The notes beneath the pieces were generated by a model. The model saw only the letters and a list, made by a program, of their open reading frames with translations, was not told where the DNA came from and ran no database searches. From a virus, in the IMG/VR virus record IMGVR_UViG_3300031251_000017, positions 2,336 through 66,335 of that record: 64,000 bases of DNA. The stretch is one strand, 5' to 3'. Made by a program: the position numbers and the translations under genes. Shown one piece after another: positions 24,996 through 43,934 of the stretch (position 1 is its first letter; each line of letters starts with the position of its first letter).

Positions 24996-25988
24996 ATGAA
25001 TTTTCCCTCGTCGCCCACTAACGGCCAGACTTACACCGATCCGACCTCGGGGAATGTCTATCAGTTCGCCTCGACTCCCGGCGTCTGGAGATCGCTTGGT
25101 CAGACGCCTTCTGTGGGGCCGACCGGGTGGACCGGGCCAACTGGCCCCGGAGGTGGGCCAACGGGACCGACAGGAGCGGCGGCGAGCAATCTGATCGTTC
25201 TTTCGGCTGACACCACCTATTATGTCCGGCAAGACGGCAGCAATTCGAATAGCGGCCTTGCGAATAATTCCGGCGGCGCGTTTCAGACTCTCGCCTATGC
25301 AATGCTGTATATGTATAAGATCAACGCTAATAATTACGCGGTGCAGATCAAAGTCGCAGACGGGCATTGGACAGAGAAGACGGTTACTCAGACATACTTT
25401 TCCGGGGTTATCGCGCCGCCCGTTCGGCCGATCAATGCGTCCAAGTTCGAGATCGTCGGAAACGAAGCCACGCCAGACAATTGCTTCCTAGACGCCACGA
25501 CCGCTGGCGCGGACGCCGGTCTCACTATCGCCGGCAATGTCATCGTGGACAGGTTCTCCGGGTTCAAGGTTTCTTCGGGGTATGCCGGGATAGAGATGCA
25601 CCTTTATGCGTCTCTCAACGTGATCGAGAATATCAACTTCATTGATTGCCCGATTGTGCTAGTGGCGGATCACTACTGCTATATCGAGGCGTTCTATAAT
25701 AATATCTATGTCGGAGGGACGATCAGTCGCTTTGCGTGGATCGACTTCTATTCGACCGTCTGGAACTTCTTCCCCACGGCTTTGCCGGGGCTGGTCATGA
25801 CCGACAAATCACTCCTACTTCGCTTCTGGTCTCAGACGAATTTCTATCTCTACAGTCCCGAGAATTGCACGCCTGATCCGGCGTCAACGAAATACACCGT
25901 CCAGAAGTTCTCGTGGTTTAACAGCTATGGGCAAGGCGGGATCGGGACTAACGCCGGGTCGGCTGACGCGACTTGTCTCATCACGTAG
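24996..25988 (+). CDS. Accessory fibre/tailspike-like protein
   Basis: Same NFPSSPTNGQTYTD anchor, a short GPTG collagen stretch, then TYYVRQDGSNSNSGL..AFQTL (typical beta-helix N-cap). Confidence 0.7.
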   Translation: MNFPSSPTNGQTYTDPTSGNVYQFASTPGVWRSLGQTPSVGPTGWTGPTGPGGGPTGPTGAAASNLIVLSADTTYYVRQDGSNSNSGLANNSGGAFQTLAYAMLYMYKINANNYAVQIKVADGHWTEKTVTQTYFSGVIAPPVRPINASKFEIVGNEATPDNCFLDATTAGADAGLTIAGNVIVDRFSGFKVSSGYAGIEMHLYASLNVIENINFIDCPIVLVADHYCYIEAFYNNIYVGGTISRFAWIDFYSTVWNFFPTALPGLVMTDKSLLLRFWSQTNFYLYSPENCTPDPASTKYTVQKFSWFNSYGQGGIGTNAGSADATCLIT

Positions 25989-29462: not shown

Positions 29463-30539
29463 ATGAAGAAGCCAGCCAAAAACAAAGAGCAGGAATTTCT
29501 AGCGGCGGTCGAAAGGAACCGGAACCCTGATGGAACGATAAATCGGAGCGCAGTGGCGCGCGATCTCGGCGTCGTGCGCCAAGCCGTTCAACCCCGAATT
29601 AAATTGTTAGAAGTCGAGGAACGGGTGGCTCGGAACAGACGCTTCGAGGCCCCTGATCTCCCCCACCGAACCCGACAGCTCGACGAGCTGATCGCCGATC
29701 GTATCAAGGAAAGCGATCGGGTGATCTCGGCCGACGAGGCGCGCGACCTTATCCCGATCAAGGTCAACATCGCCGGCCCCTTCGGGCTTCTCGTCTTCGG
29801 CGATCCCCATGTCGACGATCCGGGTTGTGCCTTCGCCCTTCTCAAGAAGCACATCGAGCTTGCCGCGAGCCACGAACACATCTTGGCGGCGAACATCGGC
29901 GATCTCGCGAATAACTGGGTCGGCCGGCTGGCTCGGCTCTACTCGTCGCAATCGACGACCGACCGCGAGTCGTGGACTCTCGTCGAGTGGATGGTGAAGG
30001 CCGTGAACTGGCTTTTCATTATCGCCGGCAACCATGACCTATGGACCGGCGCGGGCGATCCCGTCGCATGGTTCGCGAAGCAGTCCGGTTCGATGTATGA
30101 GGAACACGGAGTCCGTCTCGAATTGCAGCACCCTTGCGGCGCTCGGACCCGAGTTCATGCCAGACACGACTTCCCCGGCCACAGCATTTGGAATTCTATG
30201 CACGGCCCGAAGCGCGAACTCGTCGCCGGGTTCCGCGACCATATCCTCGTCGCTGGCCACAAGCATATCGGCGGCGACGAAGGGACGGTCTCGCCGGATG
30301 GGATATGTGCGCAGCTTGTTCGCGTGAGCGGTTACAAGCTCGCCGACACTTACGCGCGCCAACTCGGCTTGAAGAAGATGCCGATCCACCCCGCCGCGCT
30401 CATAATTATCGACCCCCGCGAACCCGACAACTCGCGAGCGCGCGCATGGTGCGCGCCGACAGTGGATCTCGGGGTGAAGCTCTTGGACTCGATCCGCCGC
30501 GACTTTGACGCGGGACAGAAGCGGAAAGGTCGCGCCTGA
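29463..30539 (+). CDS. Calcineurin-like metallophosphoesterase with N-terminal HTH
   Basis: GDPH, GDLANN, GNHD and GHKH motifs; NRSAVARDLGV HTH. Confidence 0.85.
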   Translation: MKKPAKNKEQEFLAAVERNRNPDGTINRSAVARDLGVVRQAVQPRIKLLEVEERVARNRRFEAPDLPHRTRQLDELIADRIKESDRVISADEARDLIPIKVNIAGPFGLLVFGDPHVDDPGCAFALLKKHIELAASHEHILAANIGDLANNWVGRLARLYSSQSTTDRESWTLVEWMVKAVNWLFIIAGNHDLWTGAGDPVAWFAKQSGSMYEEHGVRLELQHPCGARTRVHARHDFPGHSIWNSMHGPKRELVAGFRDHILVAGHKHIGGDEGTVSPDGICAQLVRVSGYKLADTYARQLGLKKMPIHPAALIIIDPREPDNSRARAWCAPTVDLGVKLLDSIRRDFDAGQKRKGRA

Positions 30540-31069
30540 TGTTGATAGCGTTCTCAGGTCGGGCGGGCGCCGGTAAGACGACCGCCGCGTGGTTCTTCGA
30601 GCGCCACGGCTTTGTTCGGACCCGGTTCGCCGGCCCTCTCAAGGATATGATCCGCGCTCTCGGATTGAGCGAGCAAGAGATCGACGGCGATCTGAAAGAG
30701 AAGCCTTGCGCGCTTCTCGGTGGCGCGACGCCGCGCCACGCGATGCAAACGCTCGGAACCGAGTGGGGGCGCGAGCTAATCCATCCCGAGCTATGGGCCG
30801 TGATCTGGCAGGACCGCGCGCGCCGGCTGCTCGATATGGGGAGGTCTGTCGTCGTGGACGATTGCCGCTTCCCGAACGAAGTCGTCGCGATCAAGGCCCT
30901 CGGGGGGAAGATCGTCCGAATCCACACCACGGACCCCGCCAGCCCCGGCGCGGCACATTGTAGCGAGACGCAGAACCTCCCCTTCGACGCAACGGTTCTC
31001 AACGAAGGGACCGATCTCGAAGTCTTCGAGTCGAGGCTTCGGGGATTGATCGACCAGCTATGGGGATGA
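30539..31069 (+). CDS. Deoxynucleoside monophosphate kinase
   Basis: GRAGAGKT, FAGPLK, PRHAMQTLGTEWGR, DDCRFPNE and HCSE motifs. Confidence 0.9.
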   Translation: MLIAFSGRAGAGKTTAAWFFERHGFVRTRFAGPLKDMIRALGLSEQEIDGDLKEKPCALLGGATPRHAMQTLGTEWGRELIHPELWAVIWQDRARRLLDMGRSVVVDDCRFPNEVVAIKALGGKIVRIHTTDPASPGAAHCSETQNLPFDATVLNEGTDLEVFESRLRGLIDQLWG

Positions 31070-38659: not shown

Positions 38660-39121
38660 TTAAGTCTCGAAGCGCGCTTCTTGCGGGCCTCGCTCTTGGT
38701 CTTGATATTTCCCGGTGTAGGGTTGATCGGTCGGCTCATAGAGCAAATGGAAAACGATCTGCGCGATCGGCGAGCCGTCCGCGATCGTCAACGTCTCGGG
38801 GCCGTGGTTCGTCAATTCGAGGGTGAGGAATCCCTTCCATCCCGGCTCGATGATCGTGTTCTGAACCGCGAGACCTTGGCGCGCCCATGAACTCTTGTCG
38901 GCGACTTGGGCGAGCAAGAAGTCGGGCATCTTGAATTCCTCTAGCGTCGAGGCGAGCCGGAACTCGCCGCTGCGCAAGACGCGACCCTTGTCGATCCTCA
39001 CATCGTAACCTGCCGAGGAAAGCCCGAACGACATGCCGAAGGCTTTCCCACGCTCGACGAACGGCTTGATGAGGCGGTGGTTGATACAATGATCGCGGAT
39101 ATGTTGAGCCGGCAGGATCAT
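38660..39121 (-). CDS. dcd: dCTP deaminase / trimeric dUTPase family
   Basis: SFGLSSAGYDVR, KSSWARQG, IEPGWKGFLTLE, IAQIVF and YTGKYQDQ. Confidence 0.9.
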   Translation of the reverse strand: MILPAQHIRDHCINHRLIKPFVERGKAFGMSFGLSSAGYDVRIDKGRVLRSGEFRLASTLEEFKMPDFLLAQVADKSSWARQGLAVQNTIIEPGWKGFLTLELTNHGPETLTIADGSPIAQIVFHLLYEPTDQPYTGKYQDQERGPQEARFET

Positions 39122-39125
39122 CTGC

Positions 39126-39347
39126 TTATTCCTCCATGACCGTGGGAACGTCGCGCCATTCGAAGGTGTTCGAAACCAAGCAGCCGTGCTTGTAAATCTT
39201 GACATTGAAGCGGTGCTGCAGCCGCTTATCGATACGAACGTCGAATGGGTTCGGTCCGAAGACGCGAGAGGCAAGCCATCGGATTTCGTCGACTTCCTTC
39301 TCGACTCGCATGGTGCTCGTAGCGGGATCGAAATCTGTTGTCTTCAT
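39126..39347 (-). CDS. Hypothetical protein
   Basis: SD GAGG; ATGA overlap; RLQHRF...EWRDVPTV. Confidence 0.55.
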   Translation of the reverse strand: MKTTDFDPATSTMRVEKEVDEIRWLASRVFGPNPFDVRIDKRLQHRFNVKIYKHGCLVSNTFEWRDVPTVMEE

Positions 39348-39775
39348 TTGATGTCCTCGAAGATTGGACGGGGCGGGAGGGACTGCTTCTGAATCCGCGT
39401 CGGCTTCGCGCTCGTCTCGAAGCCGCGCGACTGTATCTTCGTCTTCGACTCGACGAGGCCGTGCGCCTTCTTCGCCATGCGATCGGCCTTCGCTTGCCGC
39501 TTGCGTTCGGCGGCGGTCTTTAGTTCGTGGGGGAGCCTCAAGACGGTGGCGAGGTTCGACTCTCGGTTCTCGCCCCCTTCTTCGAGCGGCTTGATGTGCT
39601 CCAAGTCGAAGGTCTGCCCGTCCGCGATCAAGATGCCGGTCAGGTAGCACTTCGACCCACCGCGTCGCAGGATGCGAAGGCGAACGGTCGGCGGCGGCTT
39701 TGAGTCGGGGTTCTTCCCGATCCATTCCTTGACGGCGCGCCCATGCGCTTTCTCGATCTTTGGTGCCTTCGTCAT
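39344..39775 (-). CDS. HNH endonuclease-like protein
   Basis: EWIGKNPD, KCYLTG, EHIKPLEEGGENRESNL and HELKT. Confidence 0.8.
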   Translation of the reverse strand: MTKAPKIEKAHGRAVKEWIGKNPDSKPPPTVRLRILRRGGSKCYLTGILIADGQTFDLEHIKPLEEGGENRESNLATVLRLPHELKTAAERKRQAKADRMAKKAHGLVESKTKIQSRGFETSAKPTRIQKQSLPPRPIFEDIK

Positions 39776-39803
39776 TCTCTGTTCGCGTCTATGGGTTGTC
39801 GGG

Positions 39804-39866
39804 TCGTTGCGTTGCGATGCGGCGCGGCGCGGTGCGCAGCGGAGCGCGGGGTTGCGCGGCGGTGGA
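39804..39866 (-). ncRNA. Pentamer-periodic array A (CGC+NN), putative guide RNA
   Basis: Sense (-): TCC ac CGC cg CGC aa CCC cg CGC tc CGC tg CGC ac CGC gc CGC gc CGC at CGC aa CGC aa CGA; intergenic. Confidence 0.7.
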
Positions 39867-39868
39867 AC

Positions 39869-40351
39869 CTATTTCCCAATCCTGCGGAAATCCTCGCGCG
39901 GATCGGGGTTGACCGTCTCGACATTCGCCACCAGACCCTTGTTGCTCTTGGGGCGAGGGTGGGAGGTCGATTCAAGAAGGCGGTAACGGGAAAGCTGCTC
40001 GGTGGCGGCGATCATGTCGTCGCGCGTCAGGTTTTGCGAAATGGCGATCTCTTGGACGCGCGCCTCGCGCCGGCTGATCCGACGAATTTTCTTGAACCCC
40101 TTCGGGGCGCGCTCAACCATGCTCCTGCCGTCGAGTCGCATGAAGCCGAAGCCGCGAACCCCGTCGATCACAACTCCGAAATCGCGCTCGGCGGCTTTCT
40201 TCGCGGATTGATAAGCAGGAAGATTGCTCGTCACTTTGAAGCCGACCGTATCGGAAGCGGCCTCGAAGCTCATGTTCGACATGACCGGCATCTGCCGGAA
40301 CAAGTTCACAAGGGCCTCGGTTTCCTTGCTCTGATTGAAAATCGGTTTCAT
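39869..40351 (-). CDS. Accessory protein between arrays (putative winged-helix)
   Basis: SD GGAG; helix-rich start then VIDGVRGFGFMRL wing-like hairpin; basic. Confidence 0.7.
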   Translation of the reverse strand: MKPIFNQSKETEALVNLFRQMPVMSNMSFEAASDTVGFKVTSNLPAYQSAKKAAERDFGVVIDGVRGFGFMRLDGRSMVERAPKGFKKIRRISRREARVQEIAISQNLTRDDMIAATEQLSRYRLLESTSHPRPKSNKGLVANVETVNPDPREDFRRIGK

Positions 40352-40371
40352 TGCTTTCTCCGTTGTCAGGT

Positions 40372-40441
40372 TCGTTGCGTTGCGTTGCGGTTCAGATCAC
40401 GGCGCTGCGAAGCGTTGCGTGGCGGAGCGGGGCGCGGCGTT
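40372..40441 (-). ncRNA. Pentamer-periodic array B (CGC+NN), putative guide RNA
   Basis: Sense (-): aa CGC cg CGC cc CGC tc CGC ca CGC aa CGC tt CGC ag CGC cg TGA tc TGA ac CGC aa CGC aa CGC aa CGA. Confidence 0.7.
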
Positions 40442-40515
40442 GATTTGGTGGTTCCCCACCGGGAAGCCGACCGTGATCGGCTCTCCGTTGGGGTGGGGAA
40501 GCCCGAAGGCTCCCC

Positions 40516-40580
40516 CCGTTGCGTTGCGTTGCGGTGCGAAGCGCCGCATAGCGCAGCGTCGCGGAGCGGTGCCGCGCGTC
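40516..40580 (-). ncRNA. Pentamer-periodic array C (CGC+NN), putative guide RNA
   Basis: Sense (-): ga CGC gc GGC ac CGC tc CGC ga CGC tg CGC ta TGC gg CGC tt CGC ac CGC aa CGC aa CGC aa CGG; begins right after the RAMP-like stop codon. Confidence 0.7.
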
Positions 40581-40581
40581 G

Positions 40582-41151
40582 TCATCCGTTCCCCCAAGTG
40601 AACTTGGTGGGGCGGAATCTCCCATTTCCGGCCGGGCTTTTCGTGATCGGGCGACCGCGCCCGACCCCGGCCAGCAGACCGGCTTGCTCGAAGAACCTCT
40701 CGAAGATTTCCTCGGGCAGCGTGTCGTTAAAAATCCGCATTTCGAGTTCGCCGCGCCAAGTCGGAACAATCGGGAAGAACCGAGTGACGCGGGAACCCGG
40801 CCCGCGCTTTCCGTTCGCGTGGGCGTAAATCTCGATAGCCTTCACCTCGTTGATATGGACGCCGAGGCTAACGTCGCTCATGGCGACGACGCCCGTCGCA
40901 AATTGGCCGGCCCAAGTCTGATTTCCCTTGCCCTTAATCTTCTCGTTCAAGAGAGATGCAGTTTCATCAAGCGCACATTTGAAGGCAACGCCGGGAATGA
41001 AGACGATTCCATTATCGTCAACGTGCGCCTTCTCTCTCCATCGGCGCTTCTCGTGGGCGTCTTCGTCCTCACCCTTTTGAAGCGCCTTAACGAAGTGCTT
41101 TGATGCGGAATAGGGGGTCATTCCTTCGATCTGGATGGTCACGGTTCTCAT
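40582..41151 (-). CDS. Stand-alone Cas7/RAMP-like RNA-binding protein
   Basis: RAMP-type pattern: N-terminal strand VTIQIEGMTPY, IPGVAFKCAL, W.GELEM strand and C-terminal Gly-rich loop AGLLAGVGRGRP...GNGRF. Confidence 0.75.
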   Translation of the reverse strand: MRTVTIQIEGMTPYSASKHFVKALQKGEDEDAHEKRRWREKAHVDDNGIVFIPGVAFKCALDETASLLNEKIKGKGNQTWAGQFATGVVAMSDVSLGVHINEVKAIEIYAHANGKRGPGSRVTRFFPIVPTWRGELEMRIFNDTLPEEIFERFFEQAGLLAGVGRGRPITKSPAGNGRFRPTKFTWGNG

Positions 41152-41176
41152 TTTCGTTTCCTTCTTGCGTTGAGGT

Positions 41177-41231
41177 TCGTTGCGTTGTGCGGCGAAGCGC
41201 GGCGTAGCGGGGTGTCGCGTGGCGAGGGGTT
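41177..41231 (-). ncRNA. Pentamer-periodic array D (CGC+NN), putative guide RNA
   Basis: Sense (-): aa CCC ct CGC ca CGC ga CAC cc CGC ta CGC cg CGC tt CGC cg CAC aa CGC aa CGA. Confidence 0.7.
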
Positions 41232-41232
41232 C

Positions 41233-41610
41233 TTATTCGACTTGCGCCGAAACCTTGGGGTGCTGCGACAGGAATCTCTCAAGGCGACCCCGCATATGGG
41301 CGGCTTCGTTGTGGGTGATCTTCCCGTCTTCCTTCCCTTCGAGATTAAACCGTGGCGCGCCCTCGATCGACGCCGGCTCGCAGTAGCGCGCGCCGTGCGT
41401 ATAATCGAGAAGCGCGACTCCGATCTCATAGGAACCGAGTTCCGGGATCGCGTGGGCGATGTCCTGCCCGATCCCGATCTTGAGCGGCTTCTTCATCTCC
41501 CCGGAGGGAACGAAGCAAGCCGGGAAGCGATCGACGAGGATCGCGCGAACGCGCGCGACCATCGCCTTGTTCGTCTTCGTCTTGAAGCTGTTGTGGGCTT
41601 GCTGCATCAC
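41233..41610 (-). CDS. proQ: ProQ/FinO-domain RNA chaperone
   Basis: RFPACF...KPLKIGIGQDI, ALLDYT...Y and GAPRFNLEG..G.IT..EA.H match the FinO/ProQ consensus. Confidence 0.85.
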   Translation of the reverse strand: MMQQAHNSFKTKTNKAMVARVRAILVDRFPACFVPSGEMKKPLKIGIGQDIAHAIPELGSYEIGVALLDYTHGARYCEPASIEGAPRFNLEGKEDGKITHNEAAHMRGRLERFLSQHPKVSAQVE

Positions 41611-42641
41611 TTCCCCCCGTTTACGGAGTCATAGCCGGAGAGCCAGCGGGCGGTTTGGTCTTCGTGCTTGCGGACTGGCAGCGGCACGTTCTTCCTCGAA
41701 GAACCTTGTCGCGCGGCCGTCGCGCCGTCCTCGAAGATAGGATCGGCCCCCGCCGGGTCCGCTACGCCCTTTGAGGCGTCGGCGGGGGCCTCGGACTGCG
41801 ACGACCCGCCAGCCGCGTCCTTCTCTTGCGCCGGCTCGTCGGCCAGCGCGTTCTTAACGACCGTGTGAGCCGCACCACTCGTCGGCTTGCCCGAGAAGAT
41901 TTCCTCGACGGTCGCCTCGCCATTCTTGATAGCCGAGAACATGCCGCGCAGGATCGGGATGTGGTCGAGGTTTATGTCGTCGTTACCGGCGACGCCGAGC
42001 GCGGCGAAGACTTGCTCGGGCTTAATGCCGAAGGCGGCAAACGCCGTGACCGCCTTCTCCCGGCGAACCGTGAGCGTCTGAACGTCTCCCGCGACGACCT
42101 TCCGCGCGGCTTCGTATGCTTGACGCCATACCGGCTTCGGGACACAGCCGAGGATCACGTTGCGCTTTGCGATAGCCATCGCAGCGTTGCCCGTCACGAT
42201 CCTCATGTCTTCGTTATAGAGCTTCCCATATTTGTCCGAGATACGGCGTGAGACTTGAACCGTCTGGCCGGAACCCGTTTCGAGATCGAGGAAGGAAGCC
42301 TCGGCGACGATCATCTTGTCCTCGATCCTCGTCTCGACGATCCGGGTCGACACGCGGCAATTCCCCCAACATTGGTGGATGATCTCGGCGAGCCGGATCG
42401 AGGGGCCGAGGATCGGCTTCCCGCCGCGCGGAAGCGCGAAGGAACACTCGGCGGCGGTTTCTTCGTCCATCGTCGCGAGGGTCAGGATCGCTCCGGTCGC
42501 GCGCTGTATCGAACGCGGATAACGCCGGGCGGTCTCGACTTGAATGTCGATCTCGGCTCGCGCGAGTCCGATCGCGAGCGGGAGAGAGTTCGGCGCGATC
42601 TGCTCGATCACCTCGCCGTCGTGCGTTACGATCTCATTCAT
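41607..42641 (-). CDS. Putative single-strand annealing/recombination protein
   Basis: AEIDIQVETARRYPRS and GPSIRLAE..CWGN; paired with the upstream exonuclease; acidic disordered tail. Confidence 0.6.
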   Translation of the reverse strand: MNEIVTHDGEVIEQIAPNSLPLAIGLARAEIDIQVETARRYPRSIQRATGAILTLATMDEETAAECSFALPRGGKPILGPSIRLAEIIHQCWGNCRVSTRIVETRIEDKMIVAEASFLDLETGSGQTVQVSRRISDKYGKLYNEDMRIVTGNAAMAIAKRNVILGCVPKPVWRQAYEAARKVVAGDVQTLTVRREKAVTAFAAFGIKPEQVFAALGVAGNDDINLDHIPILRGMFSAIKNGEATVEEIFSGKPTSGAAHTVVKNALADEPAQEKDAAGGSSQSEAPADASKGVADPAGADPIFEDGATAARQGSSRKNVPLPVRKHEDQTARWLSGYDSVNGGK

Positions 42642-42654
42642 TCGTTCGGTTCCT

Positions 42655-43620
42655 TTACTTGCGGAAAGCCCACGCGGGGATGTCGTTAATATCGAGTTCT
42701 TCGAGCGGGAGCGCCTCAACCCACGGCGTGTCGAGGCCGAACTTCTCGGAGAAGGCGAGCCAGTTCGCTTCGCCTTGTTCGATCACGGCGCGGCCGTGGT
42801 CGAAGATGCCGTTCTCGGGCGAGATTTGCGTCGCCCATGACAGGGGCGCGCTCTGTTTCTGAACGAAGACGAAGACGAAGGCGGCGGCGTCCTTTGCGGC
42901 AGCAGCGCGCAAGCGATCGACGGTCGTCGTGTCGCCATCTGGAAGACCGAAGACTTTCCCGGCTTCGACAAGCGCCGCCATCTGCCTCCAGCCGTCCATG
43001 TAATAGGCGGCTTGCACGAAATACTTGTAAGTGCCGATATGACGCCGGCAGAGTTCTACGAAGTCGATCCCGTCGCGGTTCGTTATCGACTTGAGATCGA
43101 CGCCAGCGATCGGCTTCAAGGCGTCAAAGCGGACCTTCTTCCGAATTCCGTTTTTCGGGTCGATCCAAAAGATCGAGACCTCTGTCCCGATAGTATTGTG
43201 GAAGGCGTCGCCATGTTCGGGATTCGATCGAACAAGCGAGCCGGCCTTCATGATTCGTTTATAGAACCGCCAGCGGATCGGAGTCTTTCCGGCTTCCTCG
43301 ATCGCCTTCCGCTCGGCCTTCCCTTCCTTGATATTTCCGGGGAGCATTGCGGGCGCATATAGCTTCTCGAAAAGTTCGCGCCCTTCGAGGATATTCTTGT
43401 GCATCGCCGTCCCGACGATCTTCGCTTCTTCCTTCTCACCTTCCTCGTCGTCGGGATCAGGGTTGAAGCGCGACTCCCACCACCAGTTCGGAGGGCAGAC
43501 GGCGAGCTTACGAATATCACTCGACCCGAGCGCCGGGTCGATGTGATAGCGATCTTCGGGCAGTCCGAAGTAAATTCCCGGCGCGAGCGGATTGGGCAGC
43601 TTTCTTTCTTCCTCGCTCAA
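42655..43620 (-). CDS. RecE/Exo VIII-like PD-(D/E)XK exonuclease (DUF3799-like)
   Basis: YH.DPALGSS, GTAMH, EVSIFW, KVRFD..VDLKS and Y.VQAAYY. Confidence 0.85.
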   Translation of the reverse strand: MSEEERKLPNPLAPGIYFGLPEDRYHIDPALGSSDIRKLAVCPPNWWWESRFNPDPDDEEGEKEEAKIVGTAMHKNILEGRELFEKLYAPAMLPGNIKEGKAERKAIEEAGKTPIRWRFYKRIMKAGSLVRSNPEHGDAFHNTIGTEVSIFWIDPKNGIRKKVRFDALKPIAGVDLKSITNRDGIDFVELCRRHIGTYKYFVQAAYYMDGWRQMAALVEAGKVFGLPDGDTTTVDRLRAAAAKDAAAFVFVFVQKQSAPLSWATQISPENGIFDHGRAVIEQGEANWLAFSEKFGLDTPWVEALPLEELDINDIPAWAFRK

Positions 43621-43934
43621 GAGCGCCTCCTGTGTCTATGGACGCGCCGGGTCGGCTCGTCTCCGTGTTCGGTGTCTTCTTCCGATTCCGGGATCGGCCA
43701 ATTCCAAGAGCGATCCGGTTCGGCCTTCGGCATTTCGAGCGAGCCGTTTACGAACGTCGACCGATCCGGCTCGCAAGCCGTCTCGACTTTCGTGCTTCCC
43801 GCCGCGAGAAGAATCCCTCCCGCGACAATGGCGCTAACCCCGATTATGATTCCGAGTTCGATCAACCCGCGCTTGTGGATTGCGAGAAAGTCGCGCGCGA
43901 TCTCGGCGCGCGAGGGGAGGTCGGGAAACTCCAT
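43617..43934 (-). CDS. Hypothetical membrane protein
   Basis: One TM segment; coupled to its neighbours. Confidence 0.5.
   Translation of the reverse strand: MEFPDLPSRAEIARDFLAIHKRGLIELGIIIGVSAIVAGGILLAAGSTKVETACEPDRSTFVNGSLEMPKAEPDRSWNWPIPESEEDTEHGDEPTRRVHRHRRRS

What the first reader, a model, noticed from the sequence alone, without database searches (positions are those of the whole stretch)
39804..41231. The arrays carry information: fixed register, array-specific dinucleotides and a shared 3' handle
Seen, sense-strand NN strings: A = ac cg aa cg tc tg ac gc gc at aa aa; B = aa cg cc tc ca aa tt ag cg tc ac aa aa aa; C = ga gc ac tc ga tg ta gg tt ac aa aa aa; D = aa ct ca ga cc ta cg tt cg aa aa. 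The 5-nt phase holds without indels even where the triplet deviates (TGA twice in B; CCC, CAC, GGC and TGC elsewhere). The 5' NNs are diverse and differ between arrays. All four end aaCGCaaCG(A/G), and A, B and D continue with related tails (cccgacaac, acctgacaac, acctcaac). Slippage microsatellites tend to homogenise and drift in phase, and a period of 5 does not fit coding. Inference: about 8-11 variable dinucleotides (16-22 nt) per array make four different guides, each with a constant handle.
Basis: partly seen in the sequence, partly recalled or inferred. Interest (0 to 1): 0.9.

Follow-up and report, generated by a model that had tools for sequence, protein, structure and literature searches.

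The report
Phage VIPR guide-RNA arrays, CGC type
The four five-base repeat arrays are very probably guide-RNA genes of a phage VIPR system, a CRISPR-like RNA-guided weapon first described in 2026 preprints, here built on a CGC instead of a GGY scaffold.

Summary
Four phase-locked (NN-CGC)n arrays of 11-14 units lie on the minus (gene-sense) strand at 39804-41231. Each has its own NN string and all end aaCGCaaCG(A/G).

The guide reading is supported. The 189-aa gene between arrays D and C (40582-41151) folds as a Cas7/Csm3-like RAMP (pLDDT 92.8; Z 11.8). By profile comparison it is a homolog of the published Vipr protein of Escherichia phage phiSUSP1 (Prob 96.6%). Homologs sit beside co-oriented arrays in 63 of 120 viral loci found by the DNA pattern alone, and in 31 of 36 bacterial loci found by protein alone. 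In those loci the constant triplet is CGC, GGC, GAC, CAC, CTC, GTC or GTT.

The locus therefore matches VIPR (bioRxiv 10.64898/2026.04.26.720920 and .720927): a Vipr protein, pentanucleotide vrRNAs read with a 1-nt skip, and an accessory gene, here a 160-aa winged-helix-like protein.

Guide C matches 20 of 20 specified bases, with the skipped bases at codon wobble positions, inside the major capsid gene of a phage-like metagenome contig. Homologs of that capsid gene occur in 9 of 401 genomes of the order that holds the closest relative. No convincing target was found for A, B or D, and no RNA data exist.

The kind is known, and this scan has met it on other DNA, including a CGC type.

The parts
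41177..41231 (-). Array D: 11 units (aaCCC, ctCGC ... aaCGC, aaCGA). It starts 1 nt after the stop of the ProQ-like gene. A short tail (acctcaac...) and the SD of the vipr gene follow. Candidate vrRNA gene.
40582..41151 (-). vipr: 189-aa stand-alone Cas7/Csm3-like RAMP with a C-terminal glycine-rich loop G-V-G-R-G-R-P...G-N-G-R-F.
   Evidence: AF2 pLDDT 92.8. Foldseek Csm3/Cas7 E 5.8e-7. VIA-align Z 11.8, with rows 1-22 all CRISPR RAMP entries. hhalign to phiSUSP1 ALH47069.1 Prob 96.6%. Homologs in 63 of 120 array loci. phrog_4652 is the only library hit; no Pfam, NCBIfam or PADLOC hit.
40516..40580 (-). Array C: 13 units, starting 1 nt after the vipr stop codon. Candidate vrRNA gene. Its 10 variable NN match a phage capsid gene 20/20 under the 1-nt skip rule.
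40442..40515 (-). Structured linker between arrays C and B: two stable hairpins, then AACCACCAAATC. Candidate 3' cap of vrRNA C or a processing element.
   Evidence: MFE -46.5 kcal/mol, z -4.15, 0 of 200 shuffles fold as well. The closest relative L129 has the same two-hairpin build, z -3.64. No Rfam match.
40372..40441 (-). Array B: 14 units (8 perfect CGC units, two TGA deviants, then acCGC aaCGC aaCGC aaCGA), followed by the tail acctgacaac and the SD of the 160-aa gene. Candidate vrRNA gene.
39869..40351 (-). 160-aa candidate accessory (vap-like) gene: N-terminal winged-helix-like domain plus a long helical hairpin.
   Evidence: Homologs in 17 of 120 array loci and next to vipr in L129 (46% identity). 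AF2 pLDDT 86.3. Only weak Foldseek rows (E >= 0.04), mostly winged-helix regulators.
39804..39863 (-). Array A: 12 units, starting 5 nt after the stop of the 160-aa gene, followed by the tail cccgacaac and the start of the HNH gene. Candidate vrRNA gene.
39344..39775 (-). HNH endonuclease gene downstream of array A. It is a neighbour; whether it belongs to the system is uncertain.
   Evidence: phrog_333 2.5e-15. No homolog in the 120 array loci.
41233..41610 (-). ProQ/FinO-family gene upstream of array D. It is a neighbour; whether it belongs to the system is uncertain.
   Evidence: Pfam PF04352 4.6e-18. No homolog in the 120 array loci.

Best explanation
The region is a phage VIPR (Viral Interference Programmable Repeat) locus.

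Inferred steps:
1. The operon transcript carries four vrRNA genes as its intergenic spacers.
2. Each (NN-CGC)n tract is bound by a filament of the 189-aa Vipr protein, one protomer per repeat. The protein holds the CGC triplets and presents the NN dinucleotides.
3. The 8-11 variable NN of each array pair with double-stranded DNA in the pattern NNxNNx..., skipping one target base per repeat.
4. The complex sits on, and silences, genes of competing phages or prophages.
5. The constant aaCGC-aaCG(A/G) end and the short tail (for C, a double hairpin) mark the 3' end.
6. The 160-aa winged-helix-like protein is the accessory (Vap-like) factor.

Shown here: the anatomy of the arrays; the RAMP fold and its homology to a published Vipr; the family-wide linkage of protein and arrays; NN hypervariability against a constant scaffold; and one perfect skip-1 match of guide C in a prophage capsid gene.

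Inferred from the two preprints and not tested here: RNA expression and processing, filament formation, DNA binding and silencing.
For: (1) Arrays. There are four phase-locked arrays of 11-14 units on the gene strand. The published vrRNAs have 9-16 units (paper).

(2) Protein fold. p189 folds as a Cas7/Csm3-like RAMP: pLDDT 92.8 and pTM 0.87. Foldseek gives 137 PDB matches at E <= 0.001, the top one a Csm chain at 5.8e-7. VIA-align gives Z 11.8, rmsd 2.7 over 145 residues to Csm3 6ae2_B, and rows 1-22 are all CRISPR RAMP entries.

(3) Homology to a published Vipr.
- Family members L010 and L136 hit the phiSUSP1-type gene by tblastn.
- The profile of 31 family members aligns to phiSUSP1 ALH47069.1 with Prob 96.6%, E 6.6e-10, over the thumb and G-loop.
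- The SUSP1 locus has the published layout, with (NN-GGT)n on the gene strand.

(4) Linkage of protein and arrays.
- 227 of 238 arrays within 3 kb are co-oriented with the gene.
- Of 36 bacterial-genome loci found by protein alone, 31 carry sense-strand pentamer arrays: CGC 13, GAC 7, GGC 4, CTC 3, CAC 2, GTC 1, GTT 1.

(5) Information content. In 232 arrays (3213 units) of 56 CGC-type loci, the NN positions carry 0.04 and 0.02 bits. NN entropy is 3.93 of 4 bits. The median array is 12 units. The last NN is AA in 116 of 232 arrays. The closest relatives (69%, 68% and 54% protein identity) have unrelated NN strings.

(6) Code, family-wide. The CGC-type guide L122:2222-2301 matches L050 at 28/30 under skip 1 (binomial E 7e-9). 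The lowest E in 20 shuffled sets of 371 guides was 1.6e-4.

(7) Target of guide C.
- There is a 20/20 match at L178:4519-4547, inside a Phage_capsid gene (2.7e-23) of a contig that also encodes TerL, portal and integrase. The skipped bases fall at codon position 3.
- Homologs of that gene occur in 9 of 401 genomes of the order of the closest relative's host.
- 8 of these 9 match guide C at 16-19 of 20 at the same site.
- Other skip rules and 30 shuffles reach at most 16/20 in about 250 kb of these elements.

(8) RNA structure. The arrays are no more structured than shuffles (z 0.05, 1.95, -0.39, 1.43), as expected for protein-bound single strands.
Against: - No RNA run holds the stretch, so expression, ends and strand of the RNAs are untested.
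- Exact skip-1 scans of the viral collection found nothing for A, C and B. For D they found a single hit in a 41%-GC contig that looks like chance.
- Guide B with up to 3 mismatches in 401 genomes gave 13 genomes with a match, against a similar number of mirror-control hits.
- A, B and D have no match above shuffles around the prophages hit by C.
- The second exact hit of guide C (L177) lies in a chromosomal intergenic region next to glgB and RNase H genes. Chance hits at this stringency therefore occur. The size of the metagenome collection is not stated, so I could not compute an expectation.
- The family-wide excess of skip-1 hits at E < 0.01 (6, against 1, 0 and 1 for the other skips) is matched by shuffled guides (3-5), so it reflects codon periodicity and is not evidence.
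- The constant triplet is CGC, not the published GGY. The string 'CGC' does not occur in the preprint's main text.
- No conserved tail structure is predicted for A, B and D.
- The winged-helix assignment of p160 rests on weak fold matches.
Confidence: 0.85

Rival explanations
1. The arrays are cis-acting protein-binding leaders and nothing more. An oligomeric RNA-binding protein (p189 itself, or a host factor) coats the CGC triplets in the mRNA to control translation or stability of the downstream genes, as TRAP does on (G/U)AG repeats. On this reading the NN are mere spacers without target information.
For: Arrays A, B and D end 20-28 nt before the next start codon and fill the whole gap from the preceding stop codon. 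They are unstructured. No promoter or terminator above chance separates them from the genes. Three of the four guides have no target. The TRAP parallel is recalled, not tested.
Against: NN entropy is near maximal, and NN strings are unrelated even between 68-69% identical relatives. The protein is homologous to a Vipr whose NN code was shown experimentally (paper). Two skip-1 matches are far beyond the controls. Arrays also stand in tandem without a gene behind them (C in the window; many in L015 and L125). Autoregulation by binding to its own mRNA could still coexist with guiding.
Confidence: 0.08
2. The arrays are slippage-generated pentanucleotide microsatellites or compositional spacers (for example C-rich Rho-loading or unstructured linkers) without sequence-specific function.
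For: They are short-period tandem repeats in a high-GC phage. Tandem Repeats Finder reports only weak, partial arrays there.
Against: There is no homogenisation of units. The register is kept through deviant triplets over as many as 54 units. The arrays are strictly co-oriented with, and linked to, one protein family across many phyla. The constant triplet changes with the protein clade.
Confidence: 0.02
3. It is a degenerate or miniature CRISPR-Cas system: a Cas7 with an unusual CRISPR array.
For: The best structural matches are Cas7/Csm3 chains.
Against: There are no repeat-spacer units of CRISPR size. The neighbours have no cas1, cas2 or other cas family hits. The repeat unit is 5 nt with 2 variable bases.
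Confidence: 0.02

Closest known systems
VIPR systems, reference type II locus of Escherichia phage phiSUSP1 (Vipr ALH47069.1 + vrRNAs + Vap1); bioRxiv 10.64898/2026.04.26.720920 and 10.64898/2026.04.26.720927
   Same: - Phage-encoded, with a single stand-alone RAMP of about 190 aa that has a thumb and a G-loop.
- Profile-level homology.
- A small second gene directly downstream.
- Arrays of 9-16 pentanucleotide repeats on the gene strand, both upstream and downstream of the gene.
- 3 constant and 2 hypervariable bases per unit, and a constant 3' end.
- A 1-nt-skip match of a guide in a gene of another phage, with the skip at the wobble position.
   Different: - The constant triplet is CGC rather than GGY. 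It fits the preprint's 'YNNNG' alternative class only if the extra C is ignored; the supplementary logos could not be seen.
- The G-loop reads G-V-G-R-G-R-P here against G-V-G-D-W-R-P in SUSP1. D and W are the residues the structure paper says read G1 and G2.
- The arrays serve as the complete intergenic spacers of an operon, abutting stop codons and ribosome-binding sites.
- No pseudoknot tail is predicted. One array is followed by a double hairpin.
- Identity to SUSP1 Vipr is detectable only over the C-terminal 64 columns.
Class 1 CRISPR backbone subunits (Cas7/Csm3/Cmr4) on crRNA
   Same: The fold is shared (Z up to 11.8). According to the preprints, so is the mode of RNA binding, with a thumb that flips out bases periodically.
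   Different: There are no CRISPR repeats, no spacers, no adaptation module and no other cas genes. The period is 5 nt with only 2 pairing bases, against 6 nt with 5 pairing bases. The guide is encoded in the repeats themselves.
TRAP-(G/U)AG repeat recognition in Bacillus (recalled, not tested)
   Same: A protein oligomer reads about 11 triplets separated by 2-3 spacer nucleotides in an mRNA leader.
   Different: TRAP is an unrelated fold, forms a closed ring of fixed size, and its spacers carry no information. Here the spacers are the information and the array length varies from 6 to 54 units.

Membership tests
VIPR system | Stand-alone small RAMP protein (RRM core, thumb, glycine-rich loop) outside any CRISPR-Cas locus | tested here: met
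   - Model pLDDT 92.8.
- Csm3/Cas7 top matches.
- Invariant G-x-G-R-x-R...G-R-F loop in 31 sequences.
- Neighbours are ProQ, HNH, dCTP deaminase, ParB-like and an exonuclease, not cas genes.
VIPR system | Sequence homology to a published Vipr protein | tested here: met
   - hhalign of the 31-sequence profile against phiSUSP1 ALH47069.1: Prob 96.6%, E 6.6e-10, but only 64 C-terminal columns.
- tblastn bridges come through the family members L010 (E 9e-5 to KT454805.2) and L136.
- Direct tblastn of p189 against named phages found nothing.
VIPR system | Flanking tandem pentanucleotide repeats (9-16 units) on the gene strand, with 3 constant and 2 hypervariable positions | tested here: met
   - Four arrays of 11-14 units.
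- NN positions carry 0.02-0.04 bits family-wide.
- 227 of 238 arrays are co-oriented with the gene.
VIPR system | Constant triplet GGY (or the published alternatives NNNGG, YNNNG, NNNNG) | tested here: inconclusive
   - The triplet is CGC (C 0.97, G 0.90, C 0.99). It keeps G2 and Y3 of GGY and can be written YNNNG.
- 'CGC' is absent from the preprint's main text.
- Fig. S17 and data S4, which would settle the point, are closed.
VIPR system | Invariable 3' tail with conserved structure | tested here: inconclusive
   - All four arrays share the end aaCGCaaCG(A/G), and A, B and D have related short tails.
- No structure beyond shuffles is predicted for A, B and D.
- Array C is followed by two hairpins, as is one array in L129.
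VIPR system | Accessory (vap) gene next to vipr with a predicted DNA-interacting domain | tested here: inconclusive
   - p160 recurs in 17 of 120 loci and in L129.
- The model shows a winged-helix-like N-terminal domain.
- The best Foldseek E is only 0.04.
VIPR system | NN dinucleotides specify DNA targets with a 1-nt skip, typically in other mobile elements | tested here: inconclusive
   - Guide C matches 20/20 in a prophage-type capsid gene with the skip at the wobble position.
- A, B and D have no target.
- One chance-like hit exists at the same stringency (L177).
VIPR system | vrRNAs are expressed, processed and co-purify with Vipr | not testable with these tools
   No RNA holder is listed for this stretch. 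This needs sRNA-seq and a pull-down.
CRISPR-Cas | Repeat-spacer array with contiguous spacers, plus adaptation genes | tested here: not met
   No such repeats were found by Tandem Repeats Finder. There are no cas1 or cas2 hits among the neighbours.

The most novel reading that the evidence does not exclude
The constant triplet may be an evolvable address that co-evolves with the Vipr G-loop. It is CGC here. Sister clades use GAC, CAC, CTC and GTT, scaffolds that do not fit the published GGY, NNNGG, YNNNG or NNNNG list. This would give mutually orthogonal VIPR systems, so that co-infecting phages cannot load or jam each other's guides.

In this clade the guides are also built into the operon mRNA itself, as every intergenic spacer. 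In L122 and L050 an array even lies in frame inside a helicase gene. Guide supply, translation of vipr and vap, and possibly autoregulation by Vipr binding to its own leader would then be coupled.

The L122 guide targets the rival's helicase sequence right next to the array insertion site. This hints at allele-specific exclusion, or homing-like spread, of the array-bearing allele.
Probability: 0.2. Interest if true: 0.7.

Novelty: new member of a known kind. Interest (0 to 1): 0.5.

Why it matters
VIPR was described only in 2026 and characterised on GGY-type systems of enterobacterial and Pseudomonas phages. This locus adds four things.

- The same machinery operates in a temperate phage from a soil-type community, probably with a Hyphomicrobiales host, on a CGC scaffold.
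- One protein clade uses at least seven different constant triplets. That is raw material for working out how Vipr reads its scaffold, and for building orthogonal programmable DNA binders.
- There is a concrete, testable guide-target pair: array C against an HK97-type capsid gene of prophages found in the same bacterial order.
- Arrays can double as operon spacers.

The finding also shows that the first-stage reader derived the noncontiguous-guide idea from sequence alone.

Tried and rejected
- **Rho, TRAP-like and iteron ideas.** I considered these first (after). I dropped them once the protein linkage and the fold were in.
- **Close relatives.** Single-protein scans of viral contigs for p189 and p160 found no relative. 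blastn of the region against named phages gave only one unrelated 358-base match. tblastn of p189 against named phages found nothing.
- **Libraries.** Rfam gave no match on 39000-42000 at E <= 1. ARAGORN found no tRNA-like gene in the linker, or in L150. NCBIfam and PADLOC gave no hit for p189 or p160.
- **Promoter and terminator scan.** Nothing above shuffles.
- **Family-wide skip-rule test.** The apparent excess of skip-1 hits is reproduced by shuffled guides, so I rejected it as evidence. Only the L122-L050 pair stands out.
- **Other phages' guides matching this window** (L032 and L139, 19/22 each). These lie within the null range.
- **Guide B.** Its first 8 NN match a conserved methyltransferase-like gene in several genomes. 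By my own arithmetic about one such 16-base hit is expected by chance in the bases searched, so I rejected it.
- **Guide D.** The single exact hit lies in a 41%-GC contig, with the skip base at codon position 2 of the only long ORF. I treated it as chance.
- **Guide C's second hit (L177).** It lies in a chromosomal intergenic region. I treated it as chance.
- **All 371 family guides against about 274 kb of the prophage regions hit by guide C.** No further significant guide.
- **Two-sequence consensus fold of the linkers.** Uninformative.
- **Sequencing runs.** No RNA holder is listed. Two DNA runs hold the stretch, and one may be its source. Laying their contigs showed identical sequence, plus fragments of other arrays. 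It gave no usable comparison of orthologous arrays.
- **Supplements.** The supplementary figures and data of the VIPR preprint (Fig. S17 repeat logos, data S4 type table) are closed. They could show that the CGC type is already catalogued.
- **Not used.** Complex prediction was not run.
Full report
**What is there.**

All genes around 39300-43700 run on the minus strand. On that strand the gaps between four consecutive genes are filled by arrays of five-base units, two variable bases followed by CGC:
- D: 41177-41231, 11 units
- C: 40516-40580, 13 units
- B: 40372-40441, 14 units
- A: 39804-39863, 12 units

The deviant triplets (CCC, CAC, GGC, TGC, TGA) stay in register. All four arrays end aaCGC-aaCG(A/G). 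A, B and D continue with related short tails that lead into the next ribosome-binding site. Each array starts 1-5 nt after a stop codon.

The periodic pattern is far beyond chance: 43 matches against 9.4 +/- 3.2 in 100 shuffles, and 31 of the 43 lie in these four places, all on the minus strand. In the whole 66,335-base virus record the arrays occur nowhere else (20 of 20 matches of a six-unit pattern).

Between C and B lies a 74-nt linker that folds into two strong hairpins (z -4.15). Rfam knows none of this.

**The genes.**

In transcription order, the flanking genes are:
- a PDDEXK exonuclease
- a phrog_3657 protein
- a ProQ/FinO-family protein, followed by array D
- a 189-aa protein (phrog_4652, no Pfam hit), followed by array C, the linker and array B
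- a 160-aa protein with no hit in any library, followed by array A
- an HNH endonuclease, a dCTP deaminase and a ParB-like protein

**Is it a one-off?**

I analysed all 120.

Many hold 3-14 co-oriented arrays with the same grammar. Deviants are mostly CTC or CAC. Arrays end aaCGC-aaCG(A/T). Arrays stand either in tandem, separated by about 20 T-rich bases, or directly before a gene.

The 189-aa protein has a homolog in 47 of the 120 loci by phmmer and in 63 by a profile of 31 members. Of the arrays within 3 kb of that gene, 227 of 238 point the same way as it does. The 160-aa protein recurs in 17 of 120 loci. The ProQ and HNH proteins recur in none.

The link also holds in reverse. Of 36 loci found in bacterial genomes by protein similarity alone, 31 carry sense-strand pentamer arrays beside the gene. 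These come from many phyla. The closest is an Ancalomicrobiaceae MAG at 69% identity. The constant triplet differs by clade: CGC in 13, GAC in 7, GGC in 4, CTC in 3, CAC in 2, GTC in 1 and GTT in 1.

The profile finds 4160 representatives at E <= 0.001 and 597 at E <= 1e-30 among 1.84 billion cluster representatives. Nearly all of the best 150 are 185-210 aa long.

**What the protein is.**

With the 31-sequence alignment, AlphaFold2 gives a confident model (pLDDT 92.8, pTM 0.87).

Foldseek against the PDB gives 137 matches at E <= 0.001. They are headed by Csm3/Cas7 chains of type III and type VII effector complexes (best 5.8e-7, probability 1.00).

The Foldseek-independent aligner puts Csm3 (6ae2_B) first, with Z 11.8 and rmsd 2.7 over 145 residues. 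Its rows 1-22 are all CRISPR RAMP entries.

The alignment has the invariant C-terminal glycine-rich loop G-x-G-R-x-R-P...G-x-x-G-R-F.

**The literature.**

A full-text search for pentanucleotide repeats in phage intergenic regions led to bioRxiv 10.64898/2026.04.26.720920. I read its abstract, Results, Discussion, methods sections 18 and 20, and ran a term search.

It describes VIPR systems:
- a phage-encoded RAMP of about 20 kDa (Vipr)
- vrRNAs of 9-16 YNNGG repeats plus a 3' tail
- NN dinucleotides that recognise double-stranded DNA with one skipped base per repeat
- targets in competing phages, prophages and satellites
- seven types with accessory vap genes
- alternative repeat consensuses NNNGG, YNNNG and NNNNG

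The companion structure paper is 10.64898/2026.04.26.720927 (abstract and sections 5 and 6 read). It shows one protomer per repeat. G1 is read by a G-loop Asp, G2 by a thumb Arg and a G-loop Trp, and Y3 sits in a pocket that excludes purines.

**Direct link to the published system.**

Two GGC-type members of the family, L010 and L136, hit the same gene of Felixounavirus-type phages by tblastn. For L010 the listed hits include Escherichia phage phiSUSP1 (KT454805.2, E 9e-5).

That SUSP1 gene (ALH47069.1, 195 aa) is followed by a 146-aa gene and flanked by 450- and 530-nt noncoding gaps, as the preprint describes. The upstream gap holds (NN-GGT)n on the gene strand.

The profile of the window's family aligns to the SUSP1 protein with probability 96.6% (E 6.6e-10) over the thumb and G-loop. 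There G-V-G-D-W-R-P of SUSP1 stands against G-V-G-R-G-R-P of the window protein.

So p189 is a Vipr homolog. The arrays are on the strand that is the RNA in the characterised systems. On that strand CGC keeps G2 and Y3 of GGY, whereas the antisense GCG would put a purine in the Y3 pocket. This last point is inference.

**Do the NN carry information?**

Family-wide, in 56 CGC-type loci with 232 arrays and 3213 units, the two NN positions carry 0.04 and 0.02 bits, and their dinucleotide entropy is 3.93 of 4 bits. Arrays have a median of 12 units (interquartile range 10-16). The last NN is AA in 116 of 232 arrays. The high information at the CGC positions is partly by construction, since arrays were found through CGC.

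The three closest relatives (L129, L044 and L087, at 69%, 68% and 54% protein identity) keep the grammar and the gene order but have unrelated NN strings.

The array RNAs are not more structured than shuffles.

**Targets.**

I first tested the code on the family. I scanned 371 guides under skips of 0-3 bases against 1.45 Mb of the fetched loci with the arrays masked.

One pair stands out. The CGC-type array L122:2222-2301 matches L050 at 28 of 30 bases under skip 1 (binomial E 7e-9). The lowest value in 20 shuffled sets was 1.6e-4. Its own genome's copy of the site matches only 23 of 30. The site lies in an SNF2-like helicase gene next to vipr.

The apparent general excess of skip-1 hits is not evidence, because shuffled guides show it too.

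For the window's own guides:
- Exact skip-1 scans of the viral collection gave nothing for A, C and B, and one chance-like hit for D.
- Guide B with up to 3 mismatches in 401 genomes of the order of the closest relative's host did not exceed the mirror control.

One hit, L177, is in a chromosomal intergenic region and is best read as chance.

The other, L178:4519-4547, lies inside a Phage_capsid gene (2.7e-23). The 8.8-kb contig has 63% GC and also encodes a large terminase, a portal and an integrase. The skipped bases fall on codon position 3. The element is not a close relative of this phage.

Homologs of this capsid segment occur in 9 of 401 genomes of that order. In 8 of the 9 the same site matches guide C at 16-19 of 20 bases, with the variation concentrated at the skipped positions. 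These homologs are not independent confirmations.

Around those prophages, other skip rules and 30 shuffles of guide C reach at most 16 of 20. Guides A, B and D find nothing. None of the other 370 family guides hits them significantly.

I rate this capsid site as a probable natural target (about 0.6). It is not a proven one.

**The accessory gene.**

p160 models with pLDDT 86.3 as a winged-helix-like domain followed by a long helical hairpin. Foldseek gives only weak rows (E >= 0.04), mostly winged-helix transcription factors. The fold, the position directly after vipr and the recurrence of the gene fit the DNA-binding Vap proteins of the preprint. The assignment is tentative.

**Verdict.**

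The locus is a VIPR system whose vrRNAs use a CGC scaffold. The kind is known from two 2026 preprints.

This scan has already met VIPR loci on other DNA, including a CGC type. I found those notes after I had reached the reading independently.

What is particular here:
- the CGC triplet, with a changed G-loop
- the arrays acting as complete operon spacers
- the hairpin linker, shared with L129
- the candidate capsid target

What is missing is any RNA or biochemical evidence. No RNA run holds the stretch.

Noticed in passing
L122:2222-2301 and L050:3609-3641: CGC arrays lie in frame inside an SNF2-like helicase ORF directly downstream of the vipr gene, in a variable linker of the protein. [quoted passage not shown]
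   Followed up: partly
L150:2330-2545: GGC-type arrays are separated by stretches that end in a tRNA T-arm-like GGTTCGAnTCC plus ...CACCACCAAAC. ARAGORN calls no tRNA. The window's C-B linker also ends AACCACCAAATC. These may be RNase P/Z-type processing signals between guides.
   Followed up: partly
window 40442-40515; L129:4852-4929: The two-hairpin linker between tandem arrays has the same build in the closest relative, with a different sequence (z -4.15 and -3.64). A two-sequence consensus fold was uninformative.
   Followed up: partly
family alignment, window protein residues 162-168: The G-loop residue after G-x-G varies with the constant triplet of the neighbouring arrays. It is D or E in the distant family members with GGC arrays (D in SUSP1 itself), R in CGC, GGC, GTC and GTT members of this clade, F, V, T or S in GAC members, and T or S in CTC members.
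   Followed up: partly
window 41233-41610 and 39344-39775: The ProQ/FinO-family gene and the HNH endonuclease gene that bracket the locus have no homolog in any of the 120 array-bearing viral loci. They are probably neighbours rather than parts of the system.
   Followed up: partly
window 25005-25036 and 30539-30570: Guides of two other phages (L032 and L139) match these coding sites at 19/22 under skip 1. At 25005 the skipped base is at the wobble position. Both matches lie within the range reached by shuffled guides, so no claim is made.
   Followed up: partly
L170:1501-1532 and homologous sites in L169, L171-L174: The first 8 NN of array B (the 8 perfect CGC units) match exactly, under skip 1, a methyltransferase-like gene conserved in several genomes of the order. 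By my own arithmetic about one 16-base hit is expected by chance in the bases searched.
   Followed up: partly
L010:6299-7008: A tract of about 142 GGC-type units lies beside a distant family member. It is probably one of the long or staggered vrRNA arrays mentioned in the preprint.
   Followed up: no
window 39804-39856 and 40517-40578: Run X1 (which may be the source of this DNA) holds short contigs of other arrays that align to arrays A and C without gaps, with 6-10 differences. VIPR-bearing relatives therefore coexist with this phage.
   Followed up: no
L178:1-8789: The contig targeted by guide C packs a large terminase, two unassigned ORFs, a capsid, a portal and an integrase into 8.8 kb, with the portal after the capsid. 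Whether it is a prophage fragment or a satellite-like element was not resolved.
   Followed up: no
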